From an uncultured virus (IMG/VR IMGVR_UViG_3300044956_000873) (lineage: Duplodnaviria > Heunggongvirae > Uroviricota > Caudoviricetes): DNA of 55,319 nucleotides. A program made the position numbers and the translations under genes. The DNA lies in the IMG/VR virus record IMGVR_UViG_3300044956_000873, one strand, 5' to 3'. Each line of letters opens with the position of its first letter. Positions within the stretch are counted from its first letter, which is position 1. Shown piece after piece: positions 1 through 44,196 of the stretch. The notes under the pieces were generated by a model. That model saw nothing but the letters and a program-made list of their open reading frames with translations. It was not told where the DNA came from and ran no database searches.

Positions 1-2
1 CT

Positions 3-539
3 AATTTAGCAACTAAAGCATTTCAAGCAGTTGCAGCTTTAACAGTTGCAGCTTACAAAATAGCTAAAACAGCTTTTAAAGGAATTGCTAATTTTGCAGC
101 AGAATGTATATACGGAGCAGCTAAAGCAGCTAAAATGATAGCAATTAAAATAGGAAACGACATTTCAGATTTTTATAATGCTTCGGTATCTTCATTTAAA
201 AAAAATAAGGATGCTATTGTAAAAACAACAAAAGATGGATTTGACGCAGTAGCAAACACAATTAAAGCTGGAGTTCAAAAAACTGAAAAAGTTGCTAACA
301 AGATAAAAACTGCGGCTGGTAATGCTCTTAAGACAGCTCAGAACAAAATTGTTAACACAGGAAAAGAAATACTTTCAATTGGATCCGCTATATGGGGGGG
401 TATTTGGGATCATGAGATTTACCAAGGAACATCCGAAGATATATTCGAATCGTATATTATTGTTGAGGGACAAAAATATTATGTACCAGTTGAATCATAC
501 GATGATTACGATTTAGAAGTTTTTGGATCGCAATATTAA
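3..539 (+). CDS. hypothetical Ala/Lys-rich protein, 5'-truncated by window
   Basis: Frame is open from base 3 (NLATKAFQAVAA...) through the listed 135..539 ORF; amphipathic low-complexity sequence. Confidence 0.6.
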   Translation, partial: NLATKAFQAVAALTVAAYKIAKTAFKGIANFAAECIYGAAKAAKMIAIKIGNDISDFYNASVSSFKKNKDAIVKTTKDGFDAVANTIKAGVQKTEKVANKIKTAAGNALKTAQNKIVNTGKEILSIGSAIWGGIWDHEIYQGTSEDIFESYIIVEGQKYYVPVESYDDYDLEVFGSQY

Positions 540-1053
540 GATGTCCTAGGGAAAAAATCCCCAAGAATATACCTATTAAATGACCCCAGTGTGATACTCC
601 ATCGGGGTCATTTAGTGTAACAAGCTCTCCTAAACCTATTATAGCTAAAATTGGTATAAATATCTTTCTATAATCTAATAGAAATCTAGTAAGCATAAGA
701 TAAACCAGTCCTGATATACCAATAGATACTGATATTCCTAATGCACACGTAAGTAAAAAAGTAATACACTGGATTATTATAGTTATCAAAACTATTTGTT
801 TTAAATCATATTTATTTCCTTTATATAGAAGAAAAAGAAATATAGCAATAATATTAAAAACAAAATGTAATAGAGATTGGTGTATAAATCCACTAATAAA
901 AGGCATAGATATAGCAAGATCTGCATTTCCTCCTAGGATTAGCATAGTAATTAATCCCACCGGATAAGCGAGTACGCATACGCCTATAATTTTTAATGTC
1001 TCTATCGCGGATCTTCTTAAATTATCTTTCATAATATTTGTTTTGTTATGCAA
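457..1053 (-). CDS. rhomboid-family intramembrane serine protease
   Basis: Multiple TM segments, FIHxxxxHxxFN, catalytic GISG and SHWGHLIG motifs; true start may be the ATG at 1032. Confidence 0.8.
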   Translation of the reverse strand: MHNKTNIMKDNLRRSAIETLKIIGVCVLAYPVGLITMLILGGNADLAISMPFISGFIHQSLLHFVFNIIAIFLFLLYKGNKYDLKQIVLITIIIQCITFLLTCALGISVSIGISGLVYLMLTRFLLDYRKIFIPILAIIGLGELVTLNDPDGVSHWGHLIGIFLGIFSLGHLNIAIQKLLNRNHRMIQLVHNIFVPQQ

Positions 1054-1089
1054 TTATAGAAAAAAGTGAAAAATACAAAAAAAGATTAC

Positions 1090-1127
1090 GAATCATTTTT
1101 TGTATCAATAAAAATAGCCTATATTTG
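1090..1127 (+). promoter_or_regulatory. Bacteroidota-type (early) promoter of tRNA operon 1
   Basis: TATATTTG (TAnnTTTG -7 box) at 1120-1127, GAATCATTTTTT at 1090-1101. Confidence 0.7.
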
Positions 1128-1163
1128 TGAAACAAAACAAAAGGAACAATATATAACACTTAA

Positions 1164-1238
1164 ATAAACAAATTAATTAACATAATACCCTCTATATTAA
1201 GACCGTCGATAAGACGATCCCCAAAGGTCCTATGTTAG
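1164..1238 (+). promoter_or_regulatory. putative attenuator leader ORF 1 (INKLINIIPSILRPSIRRSPKVLC, ATA start)
   Basis: 24-codon frame rich in ATA, TCN and AGA; its 3' end overlaps the antiterminator arm 1223-1241; start is ATA rather than ATG. Confidence 0.5.
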
Positions 1239-1259
1239 TTTTAACTATAACTATAAACT

Positions 1260-1294
1260 AAAAACCGGGGCCTTTAAAAAGTCCCGGTTTTTTT
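1260..1294 (+). terminator. intrinsic terminator (attenuator) upstream of tRNA cluster 1
   Basis: AAAAACCGGGGC...GTCCCGGTTTTTTT hairpin with a 7-T tract. Confidence 0.85.
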
Positions 1295-1295
1295 A

Positions 1296-1307
1296 TGTTC
1301 TTTGAAA
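1296..1307 (+). promoter_or_regulatory. boxA-like antitermination element
   Basis: TGTTCTTTGAAA, resembling rrn boxA; same position as in operon 2. Confidence 0.55.
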
Positions 1308-1329
1308 TATTGGTTAAATAAAATTATAA

Positions 1330-1417
1330 GGAGGATTAAACCATAATTGGTACTGGCGCAGTCTTGAAAACTATTCATCGTGCAAACGATGTGTAGATTC
1401 GAGTCCTACATCCTCCG
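1330..1417 (+). tRNA. tRNA-Ser(UGA), slightly degenerate
   Basis: GGAGGAT/ATCCTCC acceptor, CT-TGA-AA loop, long variable arm, TTCGAGT T-loop; stem mismatches. Confidence 0.8.
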
Positions 1418-1422
1418 CTCAT

Positions 1423-1494
1423 GGGTCCATAGTTAAAGGGATATAACCCTAGCCTTCTAAGCTTGTATTCCTGGTTCGAGTCCAGGTGGACCTA
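1423..1494 (+). tRNA. tRNA-Arg(UCU)
   Basis: GGGTCCA/TGGACCT acceptor, CT-TCT-AA loop, CCTGG-TTCGAGT-CCAGG T arm. Confidence 0.9.
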
Positions 1495-1541
1495 CATACC
1501 GCCCTCTACCTAGCGCTGGGTATGGATCGAAGATAAACCAT

Positions 1542-1769
1542 ATGGATCACGTCCCTAATGGTATGAAGGGTAAAAGACATTCTAAAGAATCTAAAGAAAA
1601 AATGGCTTTAAATAACACTAATAAATTAAGTCATTCTGAAATAATCAATAGGATAAATGATATTAAAAATGAGAATAATAAATGGGGCTATATAATTAGA
1701 CTATCAAAAAAATGCAAGGTCAGTCACACCCAAGTTAAAAGATTCATAAAAAAATATTTAGAGACGTAG
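1542..1769 (+). pseudogene. NUMOD3-containing homing endonuclease remnant
   Basis: GMKGKRHSKESKEKM NUMOD3 motif and C-terminal HTH-like segment, no nuclease domain; sits between tRNAs. Confidence 0.6.
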
Positions 1770-1833
1770 CTCAATTGGTTAGAGCACATGCCTTATACGC
1801 ATGCGGTCATGGGTTCGACTCCCATCGTCTCTA
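1760..1833 (+). tRNA. tRNA-Ile(UAU)
   Basis: Perfect stems AGAGACG/CGTCTCT, GCTC/GAGC, CATGC/GCATG, ATGGG/CCCAT; loop CT-TAT-AC. Confidence 0.92.
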
Positions 1834-1837
1834 CTTA

Positions 1838-1910
1838 GGTCCCTTAGCTTAGTCGGTTAGGACGTTAGGTTTTCATCCTAGAAAGAGGGGTTCGATTCCC
1901 CCAGAGACTA
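1838..1910 (+). tRNA. tRNA-Glu(UUC), degenerate
   Basis: TT-TTC-AT anticodon loop, GGGG-TTCGATT-CCCC T arm; acceptor and D-stem mismatches. Confidence 0.7.
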
Positions 1911-1999
1911 CTACAACTGGTACCCTTGAGAAACTCGTATTTAAAGATAAGCAGTGTGGTATAAAAGATAAAATCATTAATTTTTTGAAATAAGGGAGT

Positions 2000-2037
2000 G
2001 AATCATTTTTTATATTCTTTGGCAATTTCTATCTTTG
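2000..2037 (+). promoter_or_regulatory. early promoter
   Basis: GAATCATTTTTT at 2000 and TATCTTTG at 2030. Confidence 0.65.
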
Positions 2038-2057
2038 TAAAACAAAAATTAATTAAA

Positions 2058-2549
2058 ATGTTAGATAAATCAGAAGATTTTTACGTGTCGCTGTACAACG
2101 AATGTGAGGAAACCTCTATGATGTTTGGTTCAATCCCTGTGTTCTTTACCACTAAAAAATCAAGCATAGTATTTTATTCGTTTCTAATACTTTTTTCTTC
2201 TACATTAGAATACTTCTTGGGAACTTATTTTTTAGCCCCTATTTTTTCATTTATTCTTATTGCCGAACATCGGAGAATAATATTAACTAGGGAAACAGTA
2301 CTAGAAATGTGTATGATAGATGAGATACATTACAATTGGGAGGCTAAAGAAAATTCGGATCTTTTAGATAGGACTGGAATGAACTTTGAATTCTCCGATT
2401 CTGATCGATGTAGATATTTTTATGAGAGAGTAAAATATGTTGATTGTAATAATCCTTTTGTATACTTAAAGCGCCACTATAAATTTTTATTATTCATAGC
2501 AGCGCTCCATGTAATCTTCTATATTGGATTAGTATACTCCGTAGTCTGA
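2058..2549 (+). CDS. hypothetical membrane protein
   Basis: Three hydrophobic segments; start moved to ATG 2058 because the longer ORF overlaps the promoter. Confidence 0.6.
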   Translation: MLDKSEDFYVSLYNECEETSMMFGSIPVFFTTKKSSIVFYSFLILFSSTLEYFLGTYFLAPIFSFILIAEHRRIILTRETVLEMCMIDEIHYNWEAKENSDLLDRTGMNFEFSDSDRCRYFYERVKYVDCNNPFVYLKRHYKFLLFIAALHVIFYIGLVYSVV

Positions 2550-3440
2550 TTTTTTATAAAGATCACACCAGTGAAATTTATTTAGCATTTTTTGATCAAT
2601 CAGATAATTTTTATAGCAGTTAAGTAGTTGATCCGCTGGTAATCTTTTAGTTTCCCCCATTTTTTTTACCACTATATTTTGGATTTTACATACATCCTTC
2701 TTAAAGAAAGGCTCGTTGAAAAAATCTTTAAAAATTGAATACATAGATTTTCCTATTACTAGGGAATCAGCTTTTGAAATACCAGTTTCTTTTAGTCTTG
2801 ATCTTTGCATAGTAAACTCATCAGCATTTTGTATTGCCTCTGCAGCTATATTCTGTACTACCTCTACTGATTGATTGCTTAAATAATTAAAGGCATCTAT
2901 TATTTTTTTATAAACAACTTCATCGTATCTTCCACCGAATTCCCCATCCATTAACAATCTAAATTTGTTAACTGTTCTAGTTGTGGTGCCTAAAGATTCT
3001 AGTCCAATAGCATCAGAAAGAGCGCTAGGTCTTATAAAAAGCCTACCTGTACTGTAGTCTTCACTGCAGAAATTTTCTATTCCTCGTATTCTTGTAACAT
3101 AAACGTCCTCCCTAATCAATTCTTCTCTCCTTCTCCTACCCCTTAATCTCTCGGGATCACCAAATTCGTGTTGTCCTAGTGCTTTTAAATATAAAGCGGC
3201 AAGTTGAGACTTAGATATTACTTGTAGATCTCTTTCTAAAGCGGTCATTTCTCCTGGACTTAATGTCTCATCATCTAGCCAATCTAAGGTTTCTTCCTCC
3301 TCGTTTCCGTACTCATCCGCCTCATTTATAGAGTATAATCTAGAAATAAGAGATTGATTTTTATTACACCAATTCTCGTAAACCTTTTGTATTTCCTGTT
3401 CCTCGGTAGAAAAACTTTCAAATAGCTTAATTCTTTGCAT
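2529..3440 (-). CDS. hypothetical protein, probable head-internal protein
   Basis: N-terminus MQRIKLFESF plus SINE motif; GATATATA late motif 15 nt upstream. Confidence 0.6.
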   Translation of the reverse strand: MQRIKLFESFSTEEQEIQKVYENWCNKNQSLISRLYSINEADEYGNEEEETLDWLDDETLSPGEMTALERDLQVISKSQLAALYLKALGQHEFGDPERLRGRRRREELIREDVYVTRIRGIENFCSEDYSTGRLFIRPSALSDAIGLESLGTTTRTVNKFRLLMDGEFGGRYDEVVYKKIIDAFNYLSNQSVEVVQNIAAEAIQNADEFTMQRSRLKETGISKADSLVIGKSMYSIFKDFFNEPFFKKDVCKIQNIVVKKMGETKRLPADQLLNCYKNYLIDQKMLNKFHWCDLYKKSDYGVY

Positions 3441-3495
3441 TTCTTGTCTTTTATCTATATATCCCAACTAGGATTGTGTTTTTTTAATAAAATAA

Positions 3496-3508
3496 GGGGG
3501 GGGGGGGG
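3496..3508. repeat. G13 homopolymer
   Basis: 13 consecutive G in an AT-rich divergent intergenic region. Confidence 0.9.
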
Positions 3509-3538
3509 AAAATCGTTAATTTTTCAACTAAACCTTAA

Positions 3539-3576
3539 AGATCTTTTTTTAGGGCCGTTATATTTCCCTACTTTTG
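3539..3576 (+). promoter_or_regulatory. early promoter
   Basis: AGATCTTTTTTT at 3539 and TACTTTTG at 3569. Confidence 0.55.
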
Positions 3577-3587
3577 TGATATAGTGT

Positions 3588-4013
3588 ATGTATAAGTTTA
3601 ACATTAAAAATTTTATTATGGGGAAACAAGTTTTAAAAAGATTTACGATGGATGTAGATCACACTAACCCAGATGCTAAGACAATATTTACATCTGTCGG
3701 AACTGGTAAAACAGAAAAAGAAGCAGTAGTTTTTGCTTTATCAATGTTTTATAAAGTTATGGATGGAGATGAAGAGGGAAGTCCGAGTACACAAAATTAT
3801 GAAGATGCTTTGGAGATAGTTAGCGAGAAATTGGAAGAGGAAGGAATTGATGAAATAGTAAGATTATTAAGGGAAGGGAAAATTGAAAAAAATTCCGAAA
3901 TCTTTTATAACTCCTACGAATCAACAAATGTAGATTATAAATTCAGTGAAATATCTGAAGTGTCTGAGTGTGGATATATTGGCAGAATGGAAATAATCGA
4001 GCCAGAATATTAA
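3588..4013 (+). CDS. hypothetical acidic protein
   Basis: 141-aa ORF downstream of an early promoter; alternative start at 3618. Confidence 0.65.
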   Translation: MYKFNIKNFIMGKQVLKRFTMDVDHTNPDAKTIFTSVGTGKTEKEAVVFALSMFYKVMDGDEEGSPSTQNYEDALEIVSEKLEEEGIDEIVRLLREGKIEKNSEIFYNSYESTNVDYKFSEISEVSECGYIGRMEIIEPEY

Positions 4014-4025
4014 TAAAAATATCAA

Positions 4026-4062
4026 GAATCATTTTTTATTCAAAATAATTGTTTTAAATTTG
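4026..4062 (+). promoter_or_regulatory. early promoter of tRNA operon 2
   Basis: GAATCATTTTTT at 4026, TAAATTTG at 4055; followed by TGAAACAA as in operon 1. Confidence 0.7.
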
Positions 4063-4097
4063 TGAAACAATATCAGAATAAAGATATTTAAGAAAGA

Positions 4098-4205
4098 ATG
4101 AAAAACTGTAGTAAACATAACATCACCCGCATGAAAAGTCAGATTAATGGCTGTTATCAAACGGTGGCGTTTTGGGCTAAGGGGAAAAAACCCGATCGAA
4201 GCTAG
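4098..4205 (+). CDS. putative attenuator leader peptide 2 (MKNCSKHNITRMKSQINGCYQTVAFWAKGKKPDRS)
   Basis: ATG-started 35-aa ORF between promoter and terminator; last codons form the antiterminator arm. Confidence 0.65.
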   Translation: MKNCSKHNITRMKSQINGCYQTVAFWAKGKKPDRS

Positions 4206-4234
4206 ATACAGGAGATCATAAATAGATATTTTGG

Positions 4235-4265
4235 AAAAGGCTTCGATTATTTTGAAGCCTTTTTT
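4235..4265 (+). terminator. intrinsic terminator (attenuator) upstream of tRNA cluster 2
   Basis: AAAAGGCTTCG/TGAAGCCTTTT hairpin plus T tract. Confidence 0.85.
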
Positions 4266-4268
4266 ATT

Positions 4269-4280
4269 TGTTCTTTAACA
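4269..4280 (+). promoter_or_regulatory. boxA-like antitermination element
   Basis: TGTTCTTTAACA, one mismatch to E. coli rrn boxA TGCTCTTTAACA. Confidence 0.6.
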
Positions 4281-4288
4281 TACTTGAC

Positions 4289-4425
4289 AAAGGTTGATTG
4301 GGGAAGGATGATTCCAATAGCACGAGAGTGTATATCGGCTGGAATCATCGGAGTTGGAAGATATACACCTAAGTAAAGCCAATCGTAAAAGGGGATGTCC
4401 ACGCAACCATGTTCCTCTTTCCTTT
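4289..4425 (+). ncRNA. unidentified structured RNA with pseudoknot
   Basis: Five helices, including interleaved perfect 10-bp and 9-bp stems; first element after boxA, immediately before tRNA-Trp. Confidence 0.65.
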
Positions 4426-4429
4426 ACAC

Positions 4430-4503
4430 ACATCGGTAGCTTAATTGAATAGAGCACTGGTCTCCAAAACCAGGGGTTGTGGGTTCTAGTCCCACCCTTT
4501 GTG
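4430..4503 (+). tRNA. tRNA-Trp(CCA), degenerate
   Basis: CTGGT-CTCCAAA-ACCAG anticodon arm, GTGGG/CCCAC T stem; two acceptor mismatches, D-loop GG lost. Confidence 0.7.
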
Positions 4504-4508
4504 CAGCT

Positions 4509-4581
4509 GGCCCTGTAGTTCAATGGATTAGAATTGGTGACTACGGATCATCAGATACTCGTTCAAATCGAGTCGCGGCTT
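4509..4581 (+). tRNA. tRNA-Arg(ACG)
   Basis: CT-ACG-GA loop, ACTCG-TTCAAAT-CGAGT T arm; one acceptor mismatch. Confidence 0.75.
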
Positions 4582-4590
4582 CTAAAATAA

Positions 4591-4661
4591 GGTCGCGTGG
4601 CCGAGTGGTTAGGCGGCGGTCTGCAAAACCGATTACACTGGTTCGAATTTAGTCGTGACCC
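4591..4661 (+). tRNA. tRNA-Cys(GCA)
   Basis: GGTCGCG/CGTGACC acceptor, CT-GCA-AA loop, TTCGAAT T-loop. Confidence 0.85.
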
Positions 4662-4807
4662 CAAAAAATTAAAAAATAAAGCCCATTGATAAAAGAGTAA
4701 TAGTAAAAGGAACTTTAGCATCAAGTAAAGAAAATTTTAGAAGAGAGGGGTATAGTTTTACAATTAGTAAAGCAATATTTAAAAAAATTAAAAAAATACT
4801 CAAAAAA

Positions 4808-4893
4808 GGAAAGTAACCCCAGACGGTGACGGGGCTCGCCTGCTAAGCGAATCGTACCTTAATTGGTATCTGGTTCGATCCCAGTTCTTTCCG
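4808..4893 (+). tRNA. tRNA-Ser(GCU)
   Basis: GGAAAG/CTTTCC acceptor, CT-GCT-AA loop, long variable arm, CTGG-TTCGATC-CCAG. Confidence 0.75.
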
Positions 4894-4943
4894 CAACATT
4901 GACATATAGATAAGCATTGATTCGATACGTCGAAGGCTCATAT

Positions 4944-5015
4944 TTTCCACTCATCTAATTGGCAGGACATGTGGTTTTGGTCCACAGAATCGAGGTTCGA
5001 ATCTTTGGGGAAAAA
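4944..5015 (+). tRNA. tRNA-Gln(UUG), degenerate
   Basis: TGTGG-TTTTGGT-CCACA anticodon arm, TTCGAAT T-loop; acceptor mismatches. Confidence 0.7.
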
Positions 5016-5054
5016 CAAAGATAAATAAGAAGACCAGTATGTAAAAATGTAGTT

Positions 5055-5543
5055 ATGAAAGTGCTAGTATTAAATAATGACTTTACGCCAGTAAGCGTTA
5101 CCGACTTTGCTCGGGGATTTAAACTTGTATACAAAGGTAAAGCTGAAATACTAGAGCATGATGAAGAAAATCCTATAGTTACTGACCAAAAAATTTACAA
5201 AAGACCTTCAGTTATAAGGCTTCTACAGTACGTTGTTTTGCCTTTTAAGAAGCTAAAACCCACGAGGGAGAACATATTTAAGAGAGACGAATTAAAGTGC
5301 TTATACTGCGATTCTACGAAGCAACTCACCATAGATCACGTCAGACCTAAATCTAGAGGAGGTATAAACACTTGGGAAAATCTTGCTACTTGTTGTTCAA
5401 AATGCAACAGTAAAAAGGGAGACAGAACCCCAGAGGAAGCTGGAATGAAAATGAGACACAAACCATTTAAGCCGGGATATGGGTATTTTATCAAGAATTT
5501 TTCAAAGGGGATAGATGTCTGGACAGCATATTTACCAGAATAG
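5055..5543 (+). CDS. HNH endonuclease (McrA-like)
   Basis: VLVLN N-terminus, RENIFKRD, CxxC, TIDHVRPKSRGG, WENLATCCSKCNSKKG. Confidence 0.9.
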   Translation: MKVLVLNNDFTPVSVTDFARGFKLVYKGKAEILEHDEENPIVTDQKIYKRPSVIRLLQYVVLPFKKLKPTRENIFKRDELKCLYCDSTKQLTIDHVRPKSRGGINTWENLATCCSKCNSKKGDRTPEEAGMKMRHKPFKPGYGYFIKNFSKGIDVWTAYLPE

Positions 5544-5613
5544 TTAAAAAATCCTAGAATTTATTGGATTTTTTATGTGTGATCCCTCTATAATGTAAGT
5601 AAAAAATAAAATT

Positions 5614-6678
5614 ATGTTATTTGATTTTGACGATATACTCATAGAACCAGAAATGCACACAGGAATACTATCCAGAAAAAAAGTGGATGTTTTTGACGAA
5701 AAGCAAATGCTTCCCCTTTTTACTGCTCCGATGGACACTGTTATTAGCATGGAAAACTATTTAGTTTTTAATTCCAACAAAATTTATAGTATTATACCAA
5801 GAAAAACTGAATACACTCTCATAGACGTTTCAATAGATCCAAAAGTTTGGTTTTCTTATGGATTGGACGACTTTAAAAAAATATTCATAAACAACAGAGC
5901 TAATATAGGATTAGGTGAAAAAGCTTATGCCCTAATTGATATAGCTAACGGTCACATGAATATAGTAAAAGAATTGTTAGAACAGTCTAAAGGGATTTAT
6001 GGGAGAAGCCTAGTTATAATGGTAGGTAATTGTGCAAATCCTTATACGTTTTTATCATTAGCTAATGCTGGAGCTGATTATGTTAGAATGGGGATTGGTA
6101 ACGGAGCTGGGTGTTTAACGACAGTACAGACTGGGGTAGGATATCCAATGGCATCACTTATCCATGAAACTGCTAAGATACAACAAGAAAGAAACCTTTC
6201 AACTAAAATAGTAGCAGACGGAGGATTCAAGAAATATGCTGATGTTATAAAAGCTTTAGCGCTAGGAGCTGACTATGTAATGCTTGGAAGTATATTTAAT
6301 AAGGCTTTAGAAAGCTGTGGAGAAACATACGAGGAGAATAAGGATCATGGATCTTGGAAAGAACCGGGGGATAAGGTAGATCAATATTCAATCTATGTTC
6401 TTTTACAGTTCGAAGCGGGAAAGAAATTTTTTAAAAAGTTTAGAGGAATGTCAACTAAGGATGTGCAAAAAAGTCTAGGTAAAACCGAATTAAAAACATC
6501 TGAAGGGATTTATAAAATGCAGCAAGTTGAATACACATTGAGTAGTTGGTGTGAAAATTTTCAAGATTATCTAAAATCTGCAATGAGTTATACGGATTGT
6601 CTTACTATAGGAGAATTTATTGGCAAAGTGCGGTTCAATAAAATATCAAAAAATTCGTTTGATAGATTTCATAAATAG
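5614..6678 (+). CDS. guaC: GMP reductase / IMP dehydrogenase family protein
   Basis: FDDILIEP, TAPMDTV, IDIANGH, GIGNGAGCLT, ADGG, VMLGS, FRGMST, TSEG; no CBS domains. Confidence 0.8.
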   Translation: MLFDFDDILIEPEMHTGILSRKKVDVFDEKQMLPLFTAPMDTVISMENYLVFNSNKIYSIIPRKTEYTLIDVSIDPKVWFSYGLDDFKKIFINNRANIGLGEKAYALIDIANGHMNIVKELLEQSKGIYGRSLVIMVGNCANPYTFLSLANAGADYVRMGIGNGAGCLTTVQTGVGYPMASLIHETAKIQQERNLSTKIVADGGFKKYADVIKALALGADYVMLGSIFNKALESCGETYEENKDHGSWKEPGDKVDQYSIYVLLQFEAGKKFFKKFRGMSTKDVQKSLGKTELKTSEGIYKMQQVEYTLSSWCENFQDYLKSAMSYTDCLTIGEFIGKVRFNKISKNSFDRFHK

Positions 6679-6705
6679 GAAACCTTTAAAAAAGCACCAT
6701 ATAAT
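6679..6705 (+). promoter_or_regulatory. putative middle promoter GAAACYTT...TATAAT
   Basis: Motif recurs at 8643, 10472, 11174, 33670, 34906 and 45837 with 21-23 nt spacing. Confidence 0.55.
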
Positions 6706-6721
6706 AAATAAAATAGCATAA

Positions 6722-7525
6722 ATGAAAAAATTTGGGAGATTCAATGATGTCATTAGATGGACCGCTGAACAAATGTATGATTATTCTTATACTGTCCATA
6801 CTGAAAAATGGCAAGGAAAAGAGATTAAACACGATCCTAAATATGCTATGATCGAGACGTTGAACTTATCCTTTTCGTGTCAGATGTCTCCAGATATCAA
6901 AGTTATTGGAGAGCAGATAAAACCAAATTTTGCTTGGGCAGATGAACATTTCGAGGAAAGAGTTAGTAGATCCCCTCTTAATCCTCCGCCCTCACACGTT
7001 CGCTGGCCTTATGCACAGAAAAATAATACTGAATTCGGGGGGTATGAAAAATTCTCACATACATATCCAGAAAGAATATGGGGAAAATATGGTGAAGAGG
7101 ATTCACCAACTAGAAAATCTGGGGTAACATTAAAAGGAATAAGATACCATTATGGGGATTTTGCAGATGTTATTAATCTTATGGTTAGAGAACCTTTTAC
7201 TAGGCAAGCATTTCTTCCGATATGGTATCCGGAAGACACAGGCTCCGTCCACGGAGAAAGAGTTCCTTGTACAATAGGGTATCACTTTATAAGAAGAGAT
7301 GATTGGGTTCATGTAGTTTATTATATTAGATCCTGTGATTTCTTTAGACACTTTAGAGATGATATCTATTTATGTGCTAAGAAGGTGTTTTGGCTTATTG
7401 AGGAGTGTAAGAAAAAAGATCAAGAAAACTGGAAAGATGTTAAACCAGGAATGTTAACAATGCACATAACATCTTTACACGCATGGGCTTCAGAAAAACC
7501 TATGCTTAAGAATTTGATTCGATGA
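6722..7525 (+). CDS. thymidylate synthase-family enzyme, probable dCMP hydroxymethylase/methylase type
   Basis: TRQA, VPCT catalytic Cys, RSCDFFRHFRDD, HITSLH. Confidence 0.75.
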   Translation: MKKFGRFNDVIRWTAEQMYDYSYTVHTEKWQGKEIKHDPKYAMIETLNLSFSCQMSPDIKVIGEQIKPNFAWADEHFEERVSRSPLNPPPSHVRWPYAQKNNTEFGGYEKFSHTYPERIWGKYGEEDSPTRKSGVTLKGIRYHYGDFADVINLMVREPFTRQAFLPIWYPEDTGSVHGERVPCTIGYHFIRRDDWVHVVYYIRSCDFFRHFRDDIYLCAKKVFWLIEECKKKDQENWKDVKPGMLTMHITSLHAWASEKPMLKNLIR

Positions 7526-7535
7526 TATATAATGG

Positions 7536-8384
7536 ATGTTGAGACATCTAAAAGACTTTAAAAACTTTTCTTTATTTGAAAATGTAAAGGTGGAAAAAAT
7601 AGACCCCGCCTCGTATAAAATGGAAACTGTTACTGAGCTTCCCTATATGAGTTACATCAAAGAAAATCGTAATAAGTTTTTAAAGAAATTAATAAAGATA
7701 TCAGAGGAGCTTGGTGTAAAGCCCCAATGGATTTTACACACTATATTTCACGAGAGCAGATTCGATTCTAAATATAAAGATGAGATGTCAGGCCAAGTCG
7801 GCCTTCTATCTTTTATTCCCTCTGTGCTAAAGAATTTTATTAATCCAGATACAGGAAAAAATTATTCACCAAACGACGTTTTAGAAATGAGCAACGTTGA
7901 TCAATTAGATTTAATTAGAGCTTTTTATAAAACATGGATAAATGAAATGAATCTTAAAGGAGAGTTATCAGCGGGCGATTTTGCATCTATAACTTTTTAT
8001 CCCGAAACAATTAGGAAAGATTGGAAATGGGAATTCCCTTCCTATGTAATTGGCAAGAACGTAGAAACTTTTAAAAGCTTTCCTTCCGATGGAGGTAAAT
8101 CTAAAAAAGATTACTACGAGTATATAGATCAGATTTTTAATAGCGAGGAGGAACAGGATGATAATAATAATTACATTCTTGGTAATTTCTCTGGAGCTTT
8201 CGCCGACACGCAATCGTATAGATCTAAAAAACCTTTAGAATATTATAGAGGCTTGTTAGATTCAATAGAAGATCCATATCTAAATCAAGATATACAACAA
8301 CAGGATTTAGAAAACACCGAAAAAAATAAACAGTCTAACGTTAACACCGTTCCGCTGGGAATAAATGCTGTAAAATGGAAATAA
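7536..8384 (+). CDS. lysozyme-like (SLT) domain virion protein
   Basis: LGVKPQWILHTIFHESRF, GLLSFIPS, MSNVDQLD pattern; late motif upstream. Confidence 0.65.
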   Translation: MLRHLKDFKNFSLFENVKVEKIDPASYKMETVTELPYMSYIKENRNKFLKKLIKISEELGVKPQWILHTIFHESRFDSKYKDEMSGQVGLLSFIPSVLKNFINPDTGKNYSPNDVLEMSNVDQLDLIRAFYKTWINEMNLKGELSAGDFASITFYPETIRKDWKWEFPSYVIGKNVETFKSFPSDGGKSKKDYYEYIDQIFNSEEEQDDNNNYILGNFSGAFADTQSYRSKKPLEYYRGLLDSIEDPYLNQDIQQQDLENTEKNKQSNVNTVPLGINAVKWK

Positions 8385-8656
8385 AAAAACTAAAAGATTT
8401 CGCTATAAAAGAAAATTTAGAATATAGTGGAGATGACGTAACAAGAATGCCAGTAATAGGTAAAGTTATTACTAAAGCTATAGGTCCTTTTGAAGAAGCG
8501 GAGTATGATGTGGTCGAAATAATAGACGATCCAAATGGTAAGGAAATCTATGTATGTAACAAATGGTACAAAGAATACAAAAGAATTCCACAGCTAATAC
8601 ACTCGGATCTTGTTAAAGAGTATATTCCAGTAGCCAAATTCGGAAACTTTTATTAA
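8375..8656 (+). CDS. hypothetical protein
   Basis: 93-aa ORF overlapping the previous stop; N-terminus IKKLKDFAIKE. Confidence 0.65.
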   Translation: MEIKKLKDFAIKENLEYSGDDVTRMPVIGKVITKAIGPFEEAEYDVVEIIDDPNGKEIYVCNKWYKEYKRIPQLIHSDLVKEYIPVAKFGNFY

Positions 8657-8764
8657 CGTGGTTATATAATAATAGGACTAGAGGTTTCTAGTCACTTCCC
8701 GGTCAACAAACCGTAGAGCTTTCAGAAATGGACGCGAAGGAAGGGGCCAAATAAAATAATCTTT

Positions 8765-9583
8765 ATGTATTATTCAACGCCAAGCGTGAATGTGGGGTGT
8801 TGTACCGCACACATCACAAGAAACAGAAATAGATCTAAGATCTACGGAGATTCCATCTATCTTAAAGACGGGGAAAATTTCGAGATTGAATTATTCAATC
8901 CCACAACAGCAAGGGTCCTTGCGAAGATCAATCTAAACGGTAAGAGTATTTCCGAATCTGGTATTATATTAAGGCCAGGAGAAAGAGTTTATCTAGAAAG
9001 ATTTATAGACACAAATAATAAGTTTCTTTTCGAAACTTATGAAGTCGATAAATCCAACGAGGCTCTTAACGCTATAATTGATAATGGTATGTTAGAGGTT
9101 TCTTTTTATAAAGAATCTAATTATATCAATCCTCGTGTAAATTATGGAGATTACTTTAAAGGAGTACCCCCTTATAATCCTTCTATTACTATTGGCACTA
9201 ACATCGGGGGATCTACTGGAATTTATTATAGCTCCGATGTCTTTGGATCTTACTGTTCAGATTCAAACTTCTCTTTAGGTGGATCCACCATAAACAATTT
9301 ATTTACTACTACAAGTATGACAAATGATTCTGTAAAAGGGTGTAATGCTAGTAATAGTTTGGAAACTGGGAGAGTTGAAATGGGTGAATTTAGTAATCAA
9401 GAATTTAGAAGTGTTTCTGCAAATTTTATGGATATAGCAGAAACAACTATTAAATATAGAATATTACCGGAATCGCAAAAACCATTAGAGTCTTCTTCAA
9501 TTAGAAACTACTGCACGGATTGTGGAACTAGAATGAAAAAGCAAACTTGGAAATTCTGTCCTAATTGCGGATCTAAGATCTAA
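8765..9583 (+). CDS. hypothetical protein with C-terminal zinc ribbon
   Basis: YCTDCG...KFCPNCG; N-terminal beta-rich domain. Confidence 0.75.
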   Translation: MYYSTPSVNVGCCTAHITRNRNRSKIYGDSIYLKDGENFEIELFNPTTARVLAKINLNGKSISESGIILRPGERVYLERFIDTNNKFLFETYEVDKSNEALNAIIDNGMLEVSFYKESNYINPRVNYGDYFKGVPPYNPSITIGTNIGGSTGIYYSSDVFGSYCSDSNFSLGGSTINNLFTTTSMTNDSVKGCNASNSLETGRVEMGEFSNQEFRSVSANFMDIAETTIKYRILPESQKPLESSSIRNYCTDCGTRMKKQTWKFCPNCGSKI

Positions 9584-41993: not shown

Positions 41994-42586
41994 TCCAACC
42001 TTTTAGACAAAAATTTAATGATTATAAACTTTCAGTGTCGGGATTATCTTCCCTTCCCGAAGAATCTTTTATGCACTGGGTAAAAAATTATATCAATAAG
42101 GATTCCCAGTTTAATCCTTTAAATTTTTTGCAAGGGAAAGTTTACTCCTTTGCTTATAACGATAAGCTAGAACCTGGTAAAAAATTCATAAATAAAAGAC
42201 CAGTGATATTTTTTACTGGATATGATAACTACGAAAAGAAAAATCTATTTAACGGATTAGATCTAGTTTTAATATCTCCTATTTTTAGATTAGCATTTTT
42301 CGAAAGAGTACAAAGTGTATTCCAGGATCAGATAGAAAGAAACTTAAAAAAAGAAGAAACGGGAGAGGATAGAGATCAAGCTCCCCTTAGAACTGAATAT
42401 CAAATAATGGAAACAATTCTTAAAGGAATCCCCTATAAACATGCGTATAGATCATGGGATTTGAAAAAAGTTAAGGATGTTATGGAAATTCCTTTTGAAG
42501 ATTGGGCTAGAATAGTATATCTGGATACTCGATCAATTGAAGGGACCCAGTTAAATGAAATATATAATAAAAATTCACAAGTCTAA
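41990..42586 (+). CDS. DNA end protector (gp2-like)
   Basis: GKVYSFAY, RPVIF, GLDL, EIPFEDW; adjacent to gp4. Confidence 0.55.
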   Translation: MIQPFRQKFNDYKLSVSGLSSLPEESFMHWVKNYINKDSQFNPLNFLQGKVYSFAYNDKLEPGKKFINKRPVIFFTGYDNYEKKNLFNGLDLVLISPIFRLAFFERVQSVFQDQIERNLKKEETGEDRDQAPLRTEYQIMETILKGIPYKHAYRSWDLKKVKDVMEIPFEDWARIVYLDTRSIEGTQLNEIYNKNSQV

Positions 42587-44196
42587 TGGCTGGATTTACC
42601 GACGATAAAAAATCATTCTTTAGCTCTATTATAGATAGTATAAAGAAAGTAGGTAGTTTTGGAATGGCCTATGAAGATCTTGTTGTAAAGAATTCACAAG
42701 CAGTAGGTATAACTGAAGCTCAGTTTCTACAAAAGGGGGGAATTAAAGATGAATCATTCCTATTTGGTTTAAGAAGAGCAGATACTACAACTAAGCAGTA
42801 CATAGCTTATTTTGATAAGGACTATAAAAATAAAAGACACTATCTACAGGGATTTGCTCAGAATCCAGAAATTGAATTTATATTAGATACAATATGTGAC
42901 GAGTCCATAGTTTATGATGAGAAAAACTTTTGGGCTTACTTCACATTTATGCAACATGATGACGTTGATGAGGAAACATACGACAAAGTTCAAAAAAGAT
43001 ACAAAGAGATTTATAACCTATTTGGATTCAATCAGGATATTTCCGCATGGCATTTATTTAGAAAATTTTTAGTAGATGGTATAATAGCATTCGAAATAGT
43101 TTTTGATAAGAAGGGAAAAAATATAGTTGGGTTTAAAGAATTAGATCCCTGGTCTTTAATACCAACAGTAGAAGCACAGCCAGATGGTTCTTTTATCGAT
43201 ATATGGATACAGTATCCTGACAATCCATCACTGACAAGAAAACTTTATGATTCTCAGATAATTTATATAAGTTACGCTAAAGGTGGAGGGACATCCTCTA
43301 GGGTTAGTTACTGTGAAAGAATGATACGCTCTTTTAATCTTCTAAGAATAATGGAGCACACAAGAATTATTTGGAACGTGATGAACTCGTCATACAGAAT
43401 GGCGATGACAGTTCCCATTGGTACTAGATCTCCACAAAAAGCAAAGCAAACGCTAGGAGAGTTAATGTCTATATACAAAGAAGATATAAGACTTAACACC
43501 GACAGTGGAGAATTAAGCATAGATGGTAGACCAAAGATTCAATTCTTTAAGAATTATTTAATGCCTTCCTCCCCTAACGGTACTTCTGATATACAGCCAC
43601 TTCCCGGCGGGGGTGATACCACAGCATTCTCTGACACTACGGTTCTTAAATACTTTGCTAATAAATTAAGGATGGATTCTAAAATTCCAGCTACTAGATT
43701 CGGTAGGGAAGAATCAGGATCAGAAGGAACTATAACTTTTACTGCAGAGGGACTAGATCAAGAAGAAGTAAGATTTGGTAAATTTATAAACAGGTTAAGA
43801 TCGATCTACCAGGAGATATTAATGAAGCCACTTTGGGTTCAATTCTGTTTAGATTTTCCGCACCTGAAAAAAGACTATATAATAAAATCCGAATTCGGTC
43901 TAGACTATGTAAAGGAAAACATGTTTAGAGAAGCCAAAGAAATGGAGGTTTTAACAGCAAGAAAAGACCAGGTGATTAAAATATCTGCTCTTATGAATTC
44001 TGCGGGGAAAAAATACTTCAGCATGGATTTCTTAGTCGATCGATGGCTAGGGGTAAGAGGACAAGATTTAATTGGTAATAAAAAAGCTAAAGAGAAAGCT
44101 GCAGAAGCTAAAAAGAAAGCTGCAGAAGCTGAAGGAGGTGCTACTGGAGCAGAGGGTGCTACTGGAGAAGAAGGCGGAGGCGAATTTACACTATAA
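42586..44196 (+). CDS. portal protein 1 (gp20-like)
   Basis: PEIEFILDTICDE, FRKFLVDG, RSFNLLRIMEHTRIIW, EEVRFGKFINRLR. Confidence 0.9.
   Translation: MAGFTDDKKSFFSSIIDSIKKVGSFGMAYEDLVVKNSQAVGITEAQFLQKGGIKDESFLFGLRRADTTTKQYIAYFDKDYKNKRHYLQGFAQNPEIEFILDTICDESIVYDEKNFWAYFTFMQHDDVDEETYDKVQKRYKEIYNLFGFNQDISAWHLFRKFLVDGIIAFEIVFDKKGKNIVGFKELDPWSLIPTVEAQPDGSFIDIWIQYPDNPSLTRKLYDSQIIYISYAKGGGTSSRVSYCERMIRSFNLLRIMEHTRIIWNVMNSSYRMAMTVPIGTRSPQKAKQTLGELMSIYKEDIRLNTDSGELSIDGRPKIQFFKNYLMPSSPNGTSDIQPLPGGGDTTAFSDTTVLKYFANKLRMDSKIPATRFGREESGSEGTITFTAEGLDQEEVRFGKFINRLRSIYQEILMKPLWVQFCLDFPHLKKDYIIKSEFGLDYVKENMFREAKEMEVLTARKDQVIKISALMNSAGKKYFSMDFLVDRWLGVRGQDLIGNKKAKEKAAEAKKKAAEAEGGATGAEGATGEEGGGEFTL

What the first reader, a model, noticed from the sequence alone, without database searches (positions are those of the whole stretch)
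4026..5015. Phage tRNA operon 2 appears to be under ribosome-mediated attenuation by a codon-matched leader peptide
Seen: promoter (4026-4062), then a 35-aa ATG leader (4098-4205), intrinsic terminator (4235-4265), boxA-like TGTTCTTTAACA, a structured RNA, and tRNAs Trp(CCA), Arg(ACG), Cys(GCA), Ser(GCU), Gln(UUG). The last leader codons GATCGAAGCT (4194-4203) pair over 10 bp with the terminator 5' arm GGCTTCGATT (4239-4248), forming a mutually exclusive antiterminator. TTGGG (4172-4176)/CCCGA (4191-4195) could act as the protector. All 3 Ser codons are AGY and both Arg codons are CGN, although this genome favours AGA; TGT x2, TGG, CAA and CAG are also present, so every intact downstream anticodon has a cognate codon. 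Known: this is trp/his attenuator logic. Inference: stalling caused by tRNA depletion or cleavage (for example by host anticodon nucleases) triggers readthrough and supplies replacement tRNAs. I know of no described attenuated phage tRNA operon. Caveat: the leader uses 18 amino acids, so only the synonymous bias is informative.
Basis: partly seen in the sequence, partly recalled or inferred. Interest (0 to 1): 0.93.

Follow-up and report, generated by a model that had tools for sequence, protein, structure and literature searches.

The report
Leader-peptide switch gating phage tRNA genes
A tiny translated reading frame wired to a stop/go RNA hairpin sits in front of this lake phage's tRNA genes and, in relatives that still have the full tRNA set, is spelled with exactly the amino acids those tRNAs carry, so the phage probably makes more tRNA when ribosomes decode slowly.

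Summary
Observation confirmed. Window 4098-4205 is a 35-codon ORF. Its last codons pair with the 5' arm of an intrinsic terminator (4239-4259 plus T-run). A boxA-like motif, a conserved structured RNA and tRNAs Trp, Arg, Cys, Ser(GCU) and Gln follow.

The decisive evidence comes from relatives. In 8 genomes with the undecayed array (15-16 amino acids; first tRNA 29-34 nt after the terminator where measured) the leader holds every array amino acid, and all codons except the last five hold nothing else. Its Ser and Arg codons are the rare boxes that the array's tRNAs read. Of 14 variable ORF columns, 11 are third positions. Unrelated leaders before tRNA blocks of other phages, including cultured Cellulophaga phage phi17:2, mirror their own blocks (10 independent leaders, combined P about 6e-20).

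This window's own array has lost 11 tRNA kinds, so here the match is partial (10 of 34 residues).

I read it as ribosome-mediated attenuation of tRNA genes (confidence 0.7): a known logic with a new target and a pan-codon sensor. There are no expression data, and antiterminator covariation is weak. Five literature searches found no description. This scan noted the same kind on other DNA (76 notes, at least 70 genomes).

The parts
4026..4062 (+). Promoter-like region. The box at 4055-4062 fits the Bacteroidota -7 motif (recalled).
   Evidence: Sequence. Conserved upstream block in 10 relatives. A similar box with the same following bases heads array 1 at 1121-1134. No transcription start data.
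4098..4205 (+). Leader ORF of 35 codons plus TAG (MKNCSKHNITRMKSQINGCYQTVAFWAKGKKPDRS).
   Evidence: Mean pairwise identity is 96% in the ORF against 88% from stop to T-run, and 11 of 14 variable columns are third codon positions, P=7e-4. It holds all array amino acids.
4172..4195 (+). Small hairpin (4172-4176 with 4191-4195). It is the candidate 'protector' and overlaps the antiterminator strand by 2 nt.
   Evidence: 55 of 55 cells paired with one one-sided change. It is weak (5 bp) and an alternative GGG/CCC pairing is predicted by RNAalifold.
4194..4203 (+). Antiterminator 5' strand: the last three sense codons plus the first base of the stop codon.
   Evidence: Duplex with 4239-4248 is -14.3 kcal/mol, reached by 4 of 2000 shuffles. 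97.2% of 109 cells are paired in 11 sequences, with one-sided changes only.
4206..4238 (+). Spacer that folds into the apical hairpin of the antiterminator.
   Evidence: RNAalifold consensus of 11 sequences cut before the terminator 3' arm. Single-sequence folds.
4232..4268 (+). Intrinsic terminator: core stem 4239-4246 with 4252-4259, T-run from 4260.
   Evidence: Scan hit. 88 of 88 cells paired, and one pair switches C-G to U-A in 5 of 11 distinct sequences; 2 of 500 shuffles reach this.
4269..4280 (+). boxA-like 12-mer directly after the terminator.
   Evidence: Conserved with one change in all 12 relatives of alignment A1. Similar motifs follow the array-1 terminators at window 1296-1307 and in L003, L008 and L011. 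The likeness to rRNA-operon boxA is recalled, not tested.
4288..4425 (+). Conserved structured RNA of unknown function. It lies between tRNA-Lys and tRNA-Trp in some relatives.
   Evidence: 7 of 32 predicted pairs have compensatory changes in 4-5 sequences. No Rfam match.
4430..4504 (+). tRNA-Trp (CCA)
4509..4582 (+). tRNA-Arg (ACG)
4591..4662 (+). tRNA-Cys (GCA)
4808..4897 (+). tRNA-Ser (GCU) with a long variable arm, atypical.
   Evidence: Rfam tRNA 29.1 bits against a gathering score of 29. Matches annotated tRNA-Ser of Acinetobacter phages by blastn. Conserved, with paired changes in the T stem. Not called by ARAGORN.
4898..4942 (+). Broken remnant of tRNA-Ile (GAT) at a deletion joint.
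   Evidence: Alignment with intact genes of L003, L006 and L015. Blastn joints.
4943..5016 (+). tRNA-Gln (UUG)

Best explanation
This is a ribosome-mediated transcription attenuator that gates a phage tRNA array.

Proposed mechanism (all steps below are inferred, not shown):
1. Transcription starts near 4065 and RNA polymerase makes the 35-codon leader.
2. If a ribosome runs through the leader quickly and sits at the stop codon (4203-4205), it covers 4194-4203. The terminator hairpin (4239-4259) then forms and transcription ends at the T-run.
3. If the ribosome lags at any earlier codon, 4194-4203 pairs with the terminator's 5' arm (4239-4248). The terminator cannot form and polymerase runs on, past a boxA-like motif, into the tRNA genes.

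In the lineage's intact form the leader holds one or more codons for each of the 16 amino acids whose tRNAs follow, in the codon boxes those tRNAs read. The switch would therefore report the decoding speed of exactly the codons that the array serves. That makes it a negative-feedback homeostat for phage tRNA supply.

Shown: the conserved parts, the complementarity and the leader/array match.
Inferred: translation, coupling to transcription, stalling and readthrough.

In this window the array has since lost 11 tRNA kinds, so the sensor is broader than what it now controls.
For: 1. The ORF is kept as a reading frame. Start and stop are conserved in 13 sequences, and 11 of 14 variable columns are third positions, P=7e-4. 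The three variable residues swap radically (T/I/N, K/N/I, K/E/D), but at codons 10 and 13 they stay within array amino acids.

2. The terminator is conserved, with a compensatory C-G to U-A change.

3. The leader 3' end is complementary to the terminator 5' arm: 4 of 2000 shuffles reach the observed energy. Folds of the transcript cut before the 3' arm show this pairing in L003 and L008, and in the unrelated units L018, L020, phi17:2 A and B; the window's own cut fold and L021 do not show it.

4. In relatives the first tRNA begins 29-34 nt after the terminator.

5. In 8 of 8 genomes with an undecayed array the leader covers 15 of 15 or 16 of 16 array amino acids. All residues except those in the last five codons are array amino acids: 29 of 29, and 26 of 26 in G002. 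Joint iid P is 2e-5 to 1.6e-4. The divergent G002 leader lacks Tyr, and so does its array.

6. At the codon level, 29 of 34 codons are decodable under strict wobble against a background of 0.50, P=2e-5. Ser is AGY three times (background 0.26) and Arg is CGH twice (background 0.07).

7. Independent recurrence:
- The L018 family has a 39-aa leader with 19 amino acids, lacking only Glu, before an array for 19 amino acids lacking only Glu.
- Cellulophaga phage phi17:2 has three units. Leader A uses CGT before tRNA-Arg(ACG). Leader B uses AGA before tRNA-Arg(UCU).
- Metagenome units include a stretch G-C-D-W-Q-Q-E before Gly Trp Cys Gln Glu Asp, and a Leu-rich leader before tRNA-Leu.
- Over 10 independent leaders the excess of own-array residues is +0.225 against +0.006 for other arrays. 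Own array is the best match for 7 of 10. Fisher P is 5.7e-20.

8. In 12 of 19 unit tests the ORF's 3' part is complementary to the terminator 5' arm at P of 0.033 or less.
Against: - There are no expression data.
- The window (10 of 34 residues in set) and L005 (14 of 34) kept the leader unchanged after their arrays shrank. The match is therefore not tracked on short time scales.
- The antiterminator helix shows only one-sided changes within this family, with no compensatory pair, and the shuffle control is uninformative.
- The complementarity test fails in 7 of 19 units: L021, phi17:2 B, M2a-c, M3 and G002.
- An equilibrium model with a masked ribosome footprint behaves like a switch in the window, L003 and L018, and partly in L020. 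It predicts the terminator at every ribosome position in L008, L021 and phi17:2 A and B.
- The protector hairpin is only 5 bp and overlaps the antiterminator strand by 2 nt. Without translation the window is predicted to read through: P(terminator) is 0.05.
Setting 'the last five codons' apart was my post hoc choice.
- The array-1 leader of relatives is not significant on its own (joint P=0.088).
- The host, and whether it couples transcription to translation closely enough, are unknown.
Confidence: 0.7

Rival explanations
1. The ORF is an ordinary small-protein gene with its own terminator. The tRNAs are made by constitutive leaky readthrough. The codon match only reflects codon adaptation of a phage gene to phage tRNAs.
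For: The ORF is conserved with a coding-type substitution pattern. The peptide is 91% identical across 10 loci. Arrays can shrink without any change in the ORF.
Against: Codon adaptation does not explain full coverage of every array amino acid, rare Trp, Cys and His included, in 15 of 15 units. It also does not explain why unrelated peptides in other phages mirror their own sub-arrays, or why the ORF's end pairs with the terminator arm. The variable residues change radically. No PHROG family was sought for the 35-aa peptide itself, and the peptide was too short for the search for related loci.
Confidence: 0.12
2. The switch is real but senses translation in general (ribosome availability, host shut-off, stringent response) rather than the supply of particular tRNAs. 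On this view the near-pangram content has no isoacceptor meaning.
For: The leader of this lineage samples 16-18 amino acids, so almost any slowdown would act. It stayed unchanged when arrays shrank. Readthrough is predicted when no ribosome is present.
Against: Ser and Arg codons sit in rare boxes that match the array's anticodons. Two leaders in one Cellulophaga phage use CGT and AGA in step with their own tRNA-Arg genes. Narrow leaders (Leu only, or six amino acids) exist in other phages.
Confidence: 0.12
3. The hairpin is a processing or stabilising structure, or a constitutive terminator overridden by a boxA-type antitermination complex. The ORF plays no role.
For: A boxA-like motif follows the terminator here and at array 1. 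tRNA precursors need processing.
Against: boxA lies downstream of the terminator, so it cannot load before it. The other phage families lack the motif but keep the ORF and terminator. The period-3 conservation of the ORF and the leader/array match would be left unexplained.
Confidence: 0.06

Closest known systems
Multivalent leader-peptide attenuators of enterobacterial amino-acid operons (thr leader with Thr+Ile codons; ilvGMEDA leader with Ile, Leu and Val codons). Recalled, no call.
   Same: A short leader ORF carries codons for several amino acids. An intrinsic terminator and a mutually exclusive antiterminator follow. The state of the switch depends on where the ribosome sits.
   Different: Those gate biosynthetic enzymes, use runs of 2-3 amino acids and have a strong 1:2 hairpin. 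This one gates tRNA genes and samples 16 amino acids mostly once or twice each. Its protector is only 5 bp, so no translation probably means readthrough.
pheST (phenylalanyl-tRNA synthetase) attenuator of E. coli. Recalled.
   Same: A component of the decoding machinery is controlled by the decoding speed of its own codons.
   Different: It has a single amino acid and a protein product. Here the product is the tRNA itself, which closes the feedback loop one step earlier.
T-box riboswitches
   Same: They sense tRNA status and act through a terminator/antiterminator choice.
   Different: They bind uncharged tRNA directly and need no ORF. No T-box or any other Rfam leader family matched the region.
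boxA-dependent antitermination of rRNA operons. Recalled.
   Same: A boxA-like 12-mer sits at the start of a long untranslated transcript (4269-4280).
   Different: Here it follows a regulated terminator. Binding of NusB/NusE was not tested, and the motif is absent from the other phage families.
Phage tRNA genes as counter-defence against tRNA-cleaving immunity (PMC10264068, PMC11464382, PMC11555353: search listing and abstract starts; term search in PMC10264068)
   Same: These papers give a reason why a phage would need tRNA on demand.
   Different: From what I saw, they deal with what the tRNAs do, not with how their transcription is controlled. The words terminator, attenuat-, leader and promoter do not occur in the main text of PMC10264068.

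Membership tests
Leader-peptide (ribosome-mediated) transcription attenuators | Short ORF in the 5' leader that is kept as a reading frame | tested here: met
   Start and stop are conserved in 13 sequences, and 11 of 14 variable columns are third positions. Translation itself was not observed.
Leader-peptide (ribosome-mediated) transcription attenuators | Regulatory codons cognate to what the operon supplies | tested here: met
   16 of 16 (15 of 15 in G002) array amino acids are present in 8 of 8 undecayed relatives, and the Ser/Arg boxes match the anticodons. In the window itself the match is only 5 of 5 coverage with 10 of 34 residues.
Leader-peptide (ribosome-mediated) transcription attenuators | Intrinsic terminator between the leader and the first regulated gene | tested here: met
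   The first tRNA lies 29-34 nt downstream in relatives.
Leader-peptide (ribosome-mediated) transcription attenuators | Antiterminator mutually exclusive with the terminator and placed under the footprint of a terminating ribosome | tested here: met
   4194-4203 pairs with 4239-4248; 4 of 2000 shuffles reach the energy, and the strand overlaps the stop codon. Covariation support is lacking.
Leader-peptide (ribosome-mediated) transcription attenuators | Upstream 1:2 hairpin that enforces termination without translation, or serves as a pause site | tested here: inconclusive
   A 5-bp helix is compatible in 55 of 55 cells, but it is weak. The window is predicted to read through without a ribosome.
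Leader-peptide (ribosome-mediated) transcription attenuators | Readthrough rises when the cognate charged tRNA is scarce | not testable with these tools
   Needs reporters, Term-seq or coupled in vitro assays. No RNA holder was listed.
Leader-peptide (ribosome-mediated) transcription attenuators | Regulated genes are amino-acid biosynthesis or aminoacyl-tRNA synthetase genes (the classical scope) | tested here: not met
   The regulated genes are tRNA genes. This is the respect in which it is a new variant.
T-box riboswitch | Specifier loop and T-box sequence matched by the Rfam model | tested here: not met
   No match at E up to 1 in 1-9000, or up to 10 in 4270-4945. The second search does not cover the leader itself.
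rRNA-type boxA antitermination site | boxA consensus bound by NusB/NusE downstream of a promoter | not tested
   The motif was seen at 4269-4280 and 1296-1307. The consensus is recalled. I made no statistical test or host comparison, because typed patterns were no longer accepted.

The most novel reading that the evidence does not exclude
Many phages gate their tRNA gene blocks with leader-peptide attenuators whose codon content mirrors the block. These range from a Leu-only leader, through six-amino-acid leaders, to the near-pangram leader of this lineage. Together they form an undescribed regulatory class: a decoding-speed homeostat that makes tRNA on demand. It may double as a sensor of host tRNA-cleaving defences or of host tRNA decay after shut-off.
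Probability: 0.6. Interest if true: 0.92.

Novelty: new variant of a known kind. Interest (0 to 1): 0.85.

Why it matters
Why phages carry tRNA genes has been argued for decades; codon compensation and escape from tRNA-cleaving defences are the two leading ideas. How the genes are controlled has hardly been asked.

A switch that reads decoding speed of precisely the codons the array serves would show that the phage measures tRNA supply in real time. Leader content would then become a readable record of which tRNAs matter to each phage.

The question is directly testable in a cultured system. Cellulophaga baltica phages phi17:2 and phi4:1 (99.1% identical over the stretch compared) carry three such units in phi17:2.

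It would also extend classical attenuation to RNA genes and to a pan-amino-acid sensor, a compact part for synthetic biology.

Tried and rejected
- Own assembly: not held. The nearest record, G001, is essentially identical and adds nothing.
- The search for related loci with the 35-aa peptide: query too short.
- Degenerate leader pattern in viral contigs: 12 stretches, only 2 on new contigs.
- L018-family pattern: only the 4 contigs already known.
- Rfam: no family for the leader or for the 4288-4425 element. T-box rejected on this basis.
- RNA evidence: no RNA holder listed.
- Covariation of the antiterminator and protector within this family: uninformative, because the sequences are too alike.
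- Equilibrium ribosome-masking model: switch-like in some homologues only.
- Sigma-70-like site at 4284-4312: it lies on the deletion joint and is absent from relatives. I rejected it as the array's promoter, but it is not excluded for this phage.
- A promoter inside the spacer 4206-4238: no fitting -33/-7 pair was seen by eye, and a start there would begin inside the terminator.
- Window array-1 head (1121-1307): not homologous to the relatives' array-1 leader ORF. Left open.
- Pipeline hit L003 340-384: judged spurious, an alternative-start ORF inside a structured element.
The test was then done from coordinates.
- A count of the promoter and boxA motifs against shuffles was left out.
- Host assignment from the terminase failed: the best cultured hits are about 32% identical and come from different phyla.
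Full report
**What is in the window.**
- A 141-aa ORF ends at 4013.
- A promoter-like stretch follows. Its box at 4055-4062 fits the Bacteroidota -7 motif (TAnnTTTG; recalled).
- An ATG ORF of 35 codons runs from 4098 to 4205.
- An intrinsic terminator follows: scan hit 4232-4266, core stem 4239-4246 with 4252-4259, T-run from 4260.
- A boxA-like 12-mer lies at 4269-4280.
- Next come about 140 nt of structured RNA, then tRNA-Trp, tRNA-Arg(ACG) and tRNA-Cys.
- An atypical tRNA-Ser(GCU) lies at 4808-4893/4897. Rfam gives 29.1 bits against a gathering score of 29 when a short stretch is searched. ARAGORN misses it.
- A broken tRNA-Ile remnant and tRNA-Gln complete the array. An HNH endonuclease gene follows at 5055-5543.

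The window belongs to a myovirus with sheath, portal, large terminase and UvsX genes. It comes from lake water metagenomes. Its terminase is only about 32% identical to any cultured phage's, so the host is not settled.

**The window's array is a remnant.**
I used the HNH protein to fetch 24 related viral loci. The close relatives carry a much longer array behind the same leader: Phe, Lys, Trp, Arg, Cys, Ser(GCU), Ile, Val, Asn, Tyr, Gly, Ala, Met, His, Thr, Gln. Blastn joints and alignments show that the window has lost two segments:
- Phe and Lys, with the joint right after 4291;
- everything from the middle of tRNA-Ile to the end of tRNA-Thr.

L005 has a similarly shrunken array. A second array (Glu, Asp, Met, Leu) lies further upstream in the relatives.

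**The leader is conserved as a reading frame.**
The leader is found in 10 of the 24 loci and on 2 further contigs.
- Three other loci are cut off upstream of where it would lie.
- One of those three, L017, has it further upstream on its contig (record G002).
- The rest are more distant, and some carry unrelated leaders (see below).

In 13 aligned sequences the ORF is 96% identical on average, against 88% for the stretch from stop to T-run. By blastn the upstream gene is only 70-75% identical. Start and stop are always kept. Of 14 variable ORF columns, 11 are third codon positions (P=7e-4).

The three variable residues change radically: T/I/N, K/N/I and K/E/D. That argues against a peptide selected for its chemistry. 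At codons 10 and 13 every variant is still an amino acid of the array.

**Terminator and alternative pairing.**
- The terminator stem pairs in 88 of 88 cells, and one pair switches C-G to U-A in 5 of 11 distinct sequences.
- The leader's last codons (4194-4203) pair with the terminator's 5' arm (4239-4248) at -14.3 kcal/mol. Only 4 of 2000 dinucleotide shuffles of the leader do as well.
- When the transcript is folded up to the 5' arm, this pairing closes the consensus structure of 11 sequences, with the spacer as an apical hairpin.
- Within the family the helix stays paired in 97.2% of 109 cells, but only through one-sided changes. There is no covariation proof.
It persists in the divergent G002 leader although the loop is 6 nt shorter. 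It is only 5 bp, though.
- In an equilibrium model with a masked ribosome footprint, the window's terminator probability is 0.05 without a ribosome, 0.42 at most with the A site at codons 1-29, and 0.57 at codons 30-36.
- L003 and L018 behave as clearer switches, L020 only partly (low for codons 1-12). L008, L021 and both phi17:2 units tested are predicted to terminate at every ribosome position. The thermodynamic picture is therefore suggestive, not uniform.

**No room for another promoter.**
In relatives the first tRNA starts 29-34 nt after the terminator. In the other families the gap is 7-25 nt, up to 48 nt in two units. The tRNAs therefore have to be made by readthrough.

In the window itself the next tRNA is about 160 nt away. 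A sigma-70-like site at 4284-4312 sits on the deletion joint. It is absent from relatives.

**The leader mirrors the array.**
- In the 7 close relatives with the full array, the leader contains all 16 array amino acids. The 29 residues between Met1 and the last five codons are array amino acids without exception. The only others are Pro, Asp and Glu in the last five codons, which form the RNA pairing region. Joint iid P is 8e-5 to 1.6e-4; the earlier version is.
- Setting the last five codons apart was my choice after seeing the data.
- The leader lacks Leu, and Glu is absent or found only in those last five codons. Both are common in the proteome (8% and 7%) and both are served by the other, upstream array.
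- The divergent G002 leader (32 aa, 76% DNA identity) covers 15 of 15 amino acids. It has lost Tyr, and its array has no tRNA-Tyr.
- At codon level, 29 of 34 codons are readable by the array under strict wobble rules against a background of 0.50 (P=2e-5).
- All three Ser codons are AGY (26% of Ser codons in long ORFs). Both Arg codons are CGC/CGA (7%). These match tRNA-Ser(GCU) and tRNA-Arg(ACG).
- Against the reading: the window (10 of 34 residues in set) and L005 (14 of 34) kept the same leader after losing most tRNAs.

**The same design with unrelated sequences.**
- The L018/L020/L021 group shares an HNH 51-58% identical to the window's. It has an unrelated 39-aa leader and terminator 13-20 nt before its array.
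- In L018 the leader uses 19 amino acids, lacking only Glu. The array serves 19 amino acids, lacking only Glu. Both Ser boxes, both Leu boxes and CGT are used, in step with the anticodons.
- Its antiterminator strand and the terminator arm differ between L018 and L021 by matching G-to-A and C-to-T changes.
- Cellulophaga phage phi17:2 (NC_021798.1) has three units. The first two share one promoter sequence.
- Unit 1 has an 11-residue run, QRLHLQELEQP, before Pro Glu Gln His Leu Leu Arg(ACG). Its Arg codon is CGT, which is 5% of Arg codons in that genome.
- Unit 2 lies before Ala Lys Ile Gly Met Asp Thr Val Arg(UCU) Met. Its Arg codon is AGA.
- Unit 3 is rich in Tyr, Ser, Asn, Trp and Phe, and lies before Tyr Ser Asn Trp Phe.

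**An automatic search for further units.**
An HNH profile fetched 80 metagenome loci, of which 12 held 3 or more tRNAs. An automatic search for 'terminator within 60 nt of a tRNA plus an ORF ending near it' examined 88 gaps on 24 locus-strands. It found 23 such units, 1 terminator without an ORF and 64 gaps with neither. I judge one of the 23 spurious.

The new units include:
- leaders rich in Leu, Thr, Phe, Val and Gln before Gln Phe Thr Val Leu Leu;
- leaders rich in Pro, Asn, Asp, Gly and Thr before Pro Asn Asp Gly Gly Thr;
- a Leu-rich leader before a lone tRNA-Leu;
- a leader with the stretch G-C-D-W-Q-Q-E before Gly Trp Cys Gln Glu Asp.

For the test I kept one representative of each of 10 unrelated leaders. 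I dropped near-duplicates (L003, L006, L011 and L015 for this family; L011 for array 1; L020 and L021; L052) and the spurious hit. L048, L063, L053 and L058 were shown but not counted.
- The excess of own-array residues is +0.225, against +0.006 for the other arrays.
- 7 of 10 leaders match their own array best.
- Fisher's combined P is 5.7e-20 under an iid null.
- The relatives' array-1 leader is weak on its own (joint P=0.088), although it carries the cluster K-E-D-D-L-L-E-D before Glu Asp Met Leu.

Complementarity between the ORF's 3' part and the terminator arm reaches P of 0.033 or less in 12 of 19 unit tests and fails in 7.

**Mechanism I commit to.**
This is ribosome-mediated attenuation. 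A ribosome that finishes the leader in time covers the antiterminator strand at the stop codon, and the terminator forms. A ribosome held up at any earlier codon leaves that strand free to capture the terminator's 5' arm, and polymerase enters the array.

Because the leader samples the array's own codons, newly made phage tRNA speeds the leader's translation and shuts the array off again.

What depletes the tRNAs is not addressed by any of my data. Candidates are codon demand of phage genes, host tRNA decay after shut-off, and tRNA-cleaving defence. The boxA-like motif after the terminator may protect the long untranslated transcript from Rho (recalled biology, untested).

**Comparison and novelty.**
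The logic is that of trp/his-type attenuators. It is closest to the multivalent thr and ilv leaders and to the pheST attenuator (recalled). It differs in three respects:
- what is regulated (tRNA genes);
- the breadth of the sensor (16 amino acids, mostly once or twice each);
- the weak or absent protector.

No Rfam family matches.

Five full-text searches gave no paper describing leader-peptide control of phage or bacterial tRNA genes (listings and abstract starts seen). A term search in PMC10264068 gave nothing either. Subscription journals are not covered.

The scan's own notebook holds 76 notes of this kind in at least 70 other genomes, one on a relative of this window. These are unchecked AI notes and I do not count them as evidence. 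I had reached my reading before consulting them.

**Verdict.**
In this particular phage the array has decayed, so the sensor now outreaches what it controls. Experimental proof is lacking.

Noticed in passing
window 4288-4425: A conserved structured RNA of about 140 nt lies inside the tRNA array, between tRNA-Lys and tRNA-Trp in L003, L004, L015 and G002. 7 of 32 predicted pairs show compensatory changes. The second hairpin has a near-invariant 17-nt loop. There is no Rfam match.
   Followed up: partly
window 1121-1416: The head of the window's first tRNA array has the same layout: a promoter-like box at 1121-1128, a terminator around 1263-1293 and a boxA-like motif at 1296-1307. It lacks the leader ORF that relatives have before their Glu-Asp-Met-Leu array. 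Only a 9-codon ATG ORF (1233-1262) ends at the terminator arm. A Ser(UGA)-like tRNA at 1330-1416 is missed by ARAGORN (Rfam tRNA-Sec model, 32 bits).
   Followed up: partly
L008 564-653; L011 307-396; L003 202-291: Relatives carry a second leader (29 aa, with the cluster K-E-D-D-L-L-E-D), terminator and boxA-like motif before the array Glu Asp Met Leu. Its 3' end copies the terminator's 3' arm.
   Followed up: partly
L039 (Cellulophaga phage phi17:2, NC_021798.1 87295-94382): There are three leader/terminator units. Annotated gp077 is unit B with an over-long TTG start that runs across the promoter. The unit C ORF (L039 2743-2841) and a tRNA-Lys (L039 1484-1556) are not annotated. Annotated gp078 (3089-3190) looks like an ORF laid over a pseudo-tRNA.
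   Followed up: partly
L018 1-251; L021 1-331: tmRNA-like genes lie just upstream of the tRNA arrays of the L018 phage group. Rfam RF00023 gives 38.5 and 43.8 bits against a gathering score of 47, and both are cut at the locus edge.
   Followed up: no
window 4282-4291 and 4898-4942; L005 3248-3330: tRNA arrays of this lineage decay by deletions between tRNA genes. The window lost Phe+Lys and Ile-to-Thr and kept a chimeric Ile remnant. L005 has an 83-nt 'Phe' call and a similarly reduced array.
   Followed up: partly
window 42586-44193 and 44203-45831: Two adjacent ORFs of 536 and 543 aa both match the portal protein family phrog_213 at about 1e-57. This looks like a tandem portal duplication.
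   Followed up: no
window about 3496-3509: A long uninterrupted run of G lies in the intergenic region upstream of the 141-aa ORF that precedes the leader.
   Followed up: no
L006 1888-1972; L015 1544-1623; L018 1534-1600: Weak Y RNA-like (YrlA, RF02553) matches of about 28 bits, far below the gathering score of 69, lie in gaps between tRNA genes of three arrays.
   Followed up: no
L049 3963-4055; L051 1964-2068 (-); L058 9639-9707 (-); L065 5531-5614: Metagenome contigs carry further unrelated leader/terminator units whose peptides mirror the tRNA block behind them. One is a Leu-rich leader before a single tRNA-Leu(UAA).
   Followed up: partly
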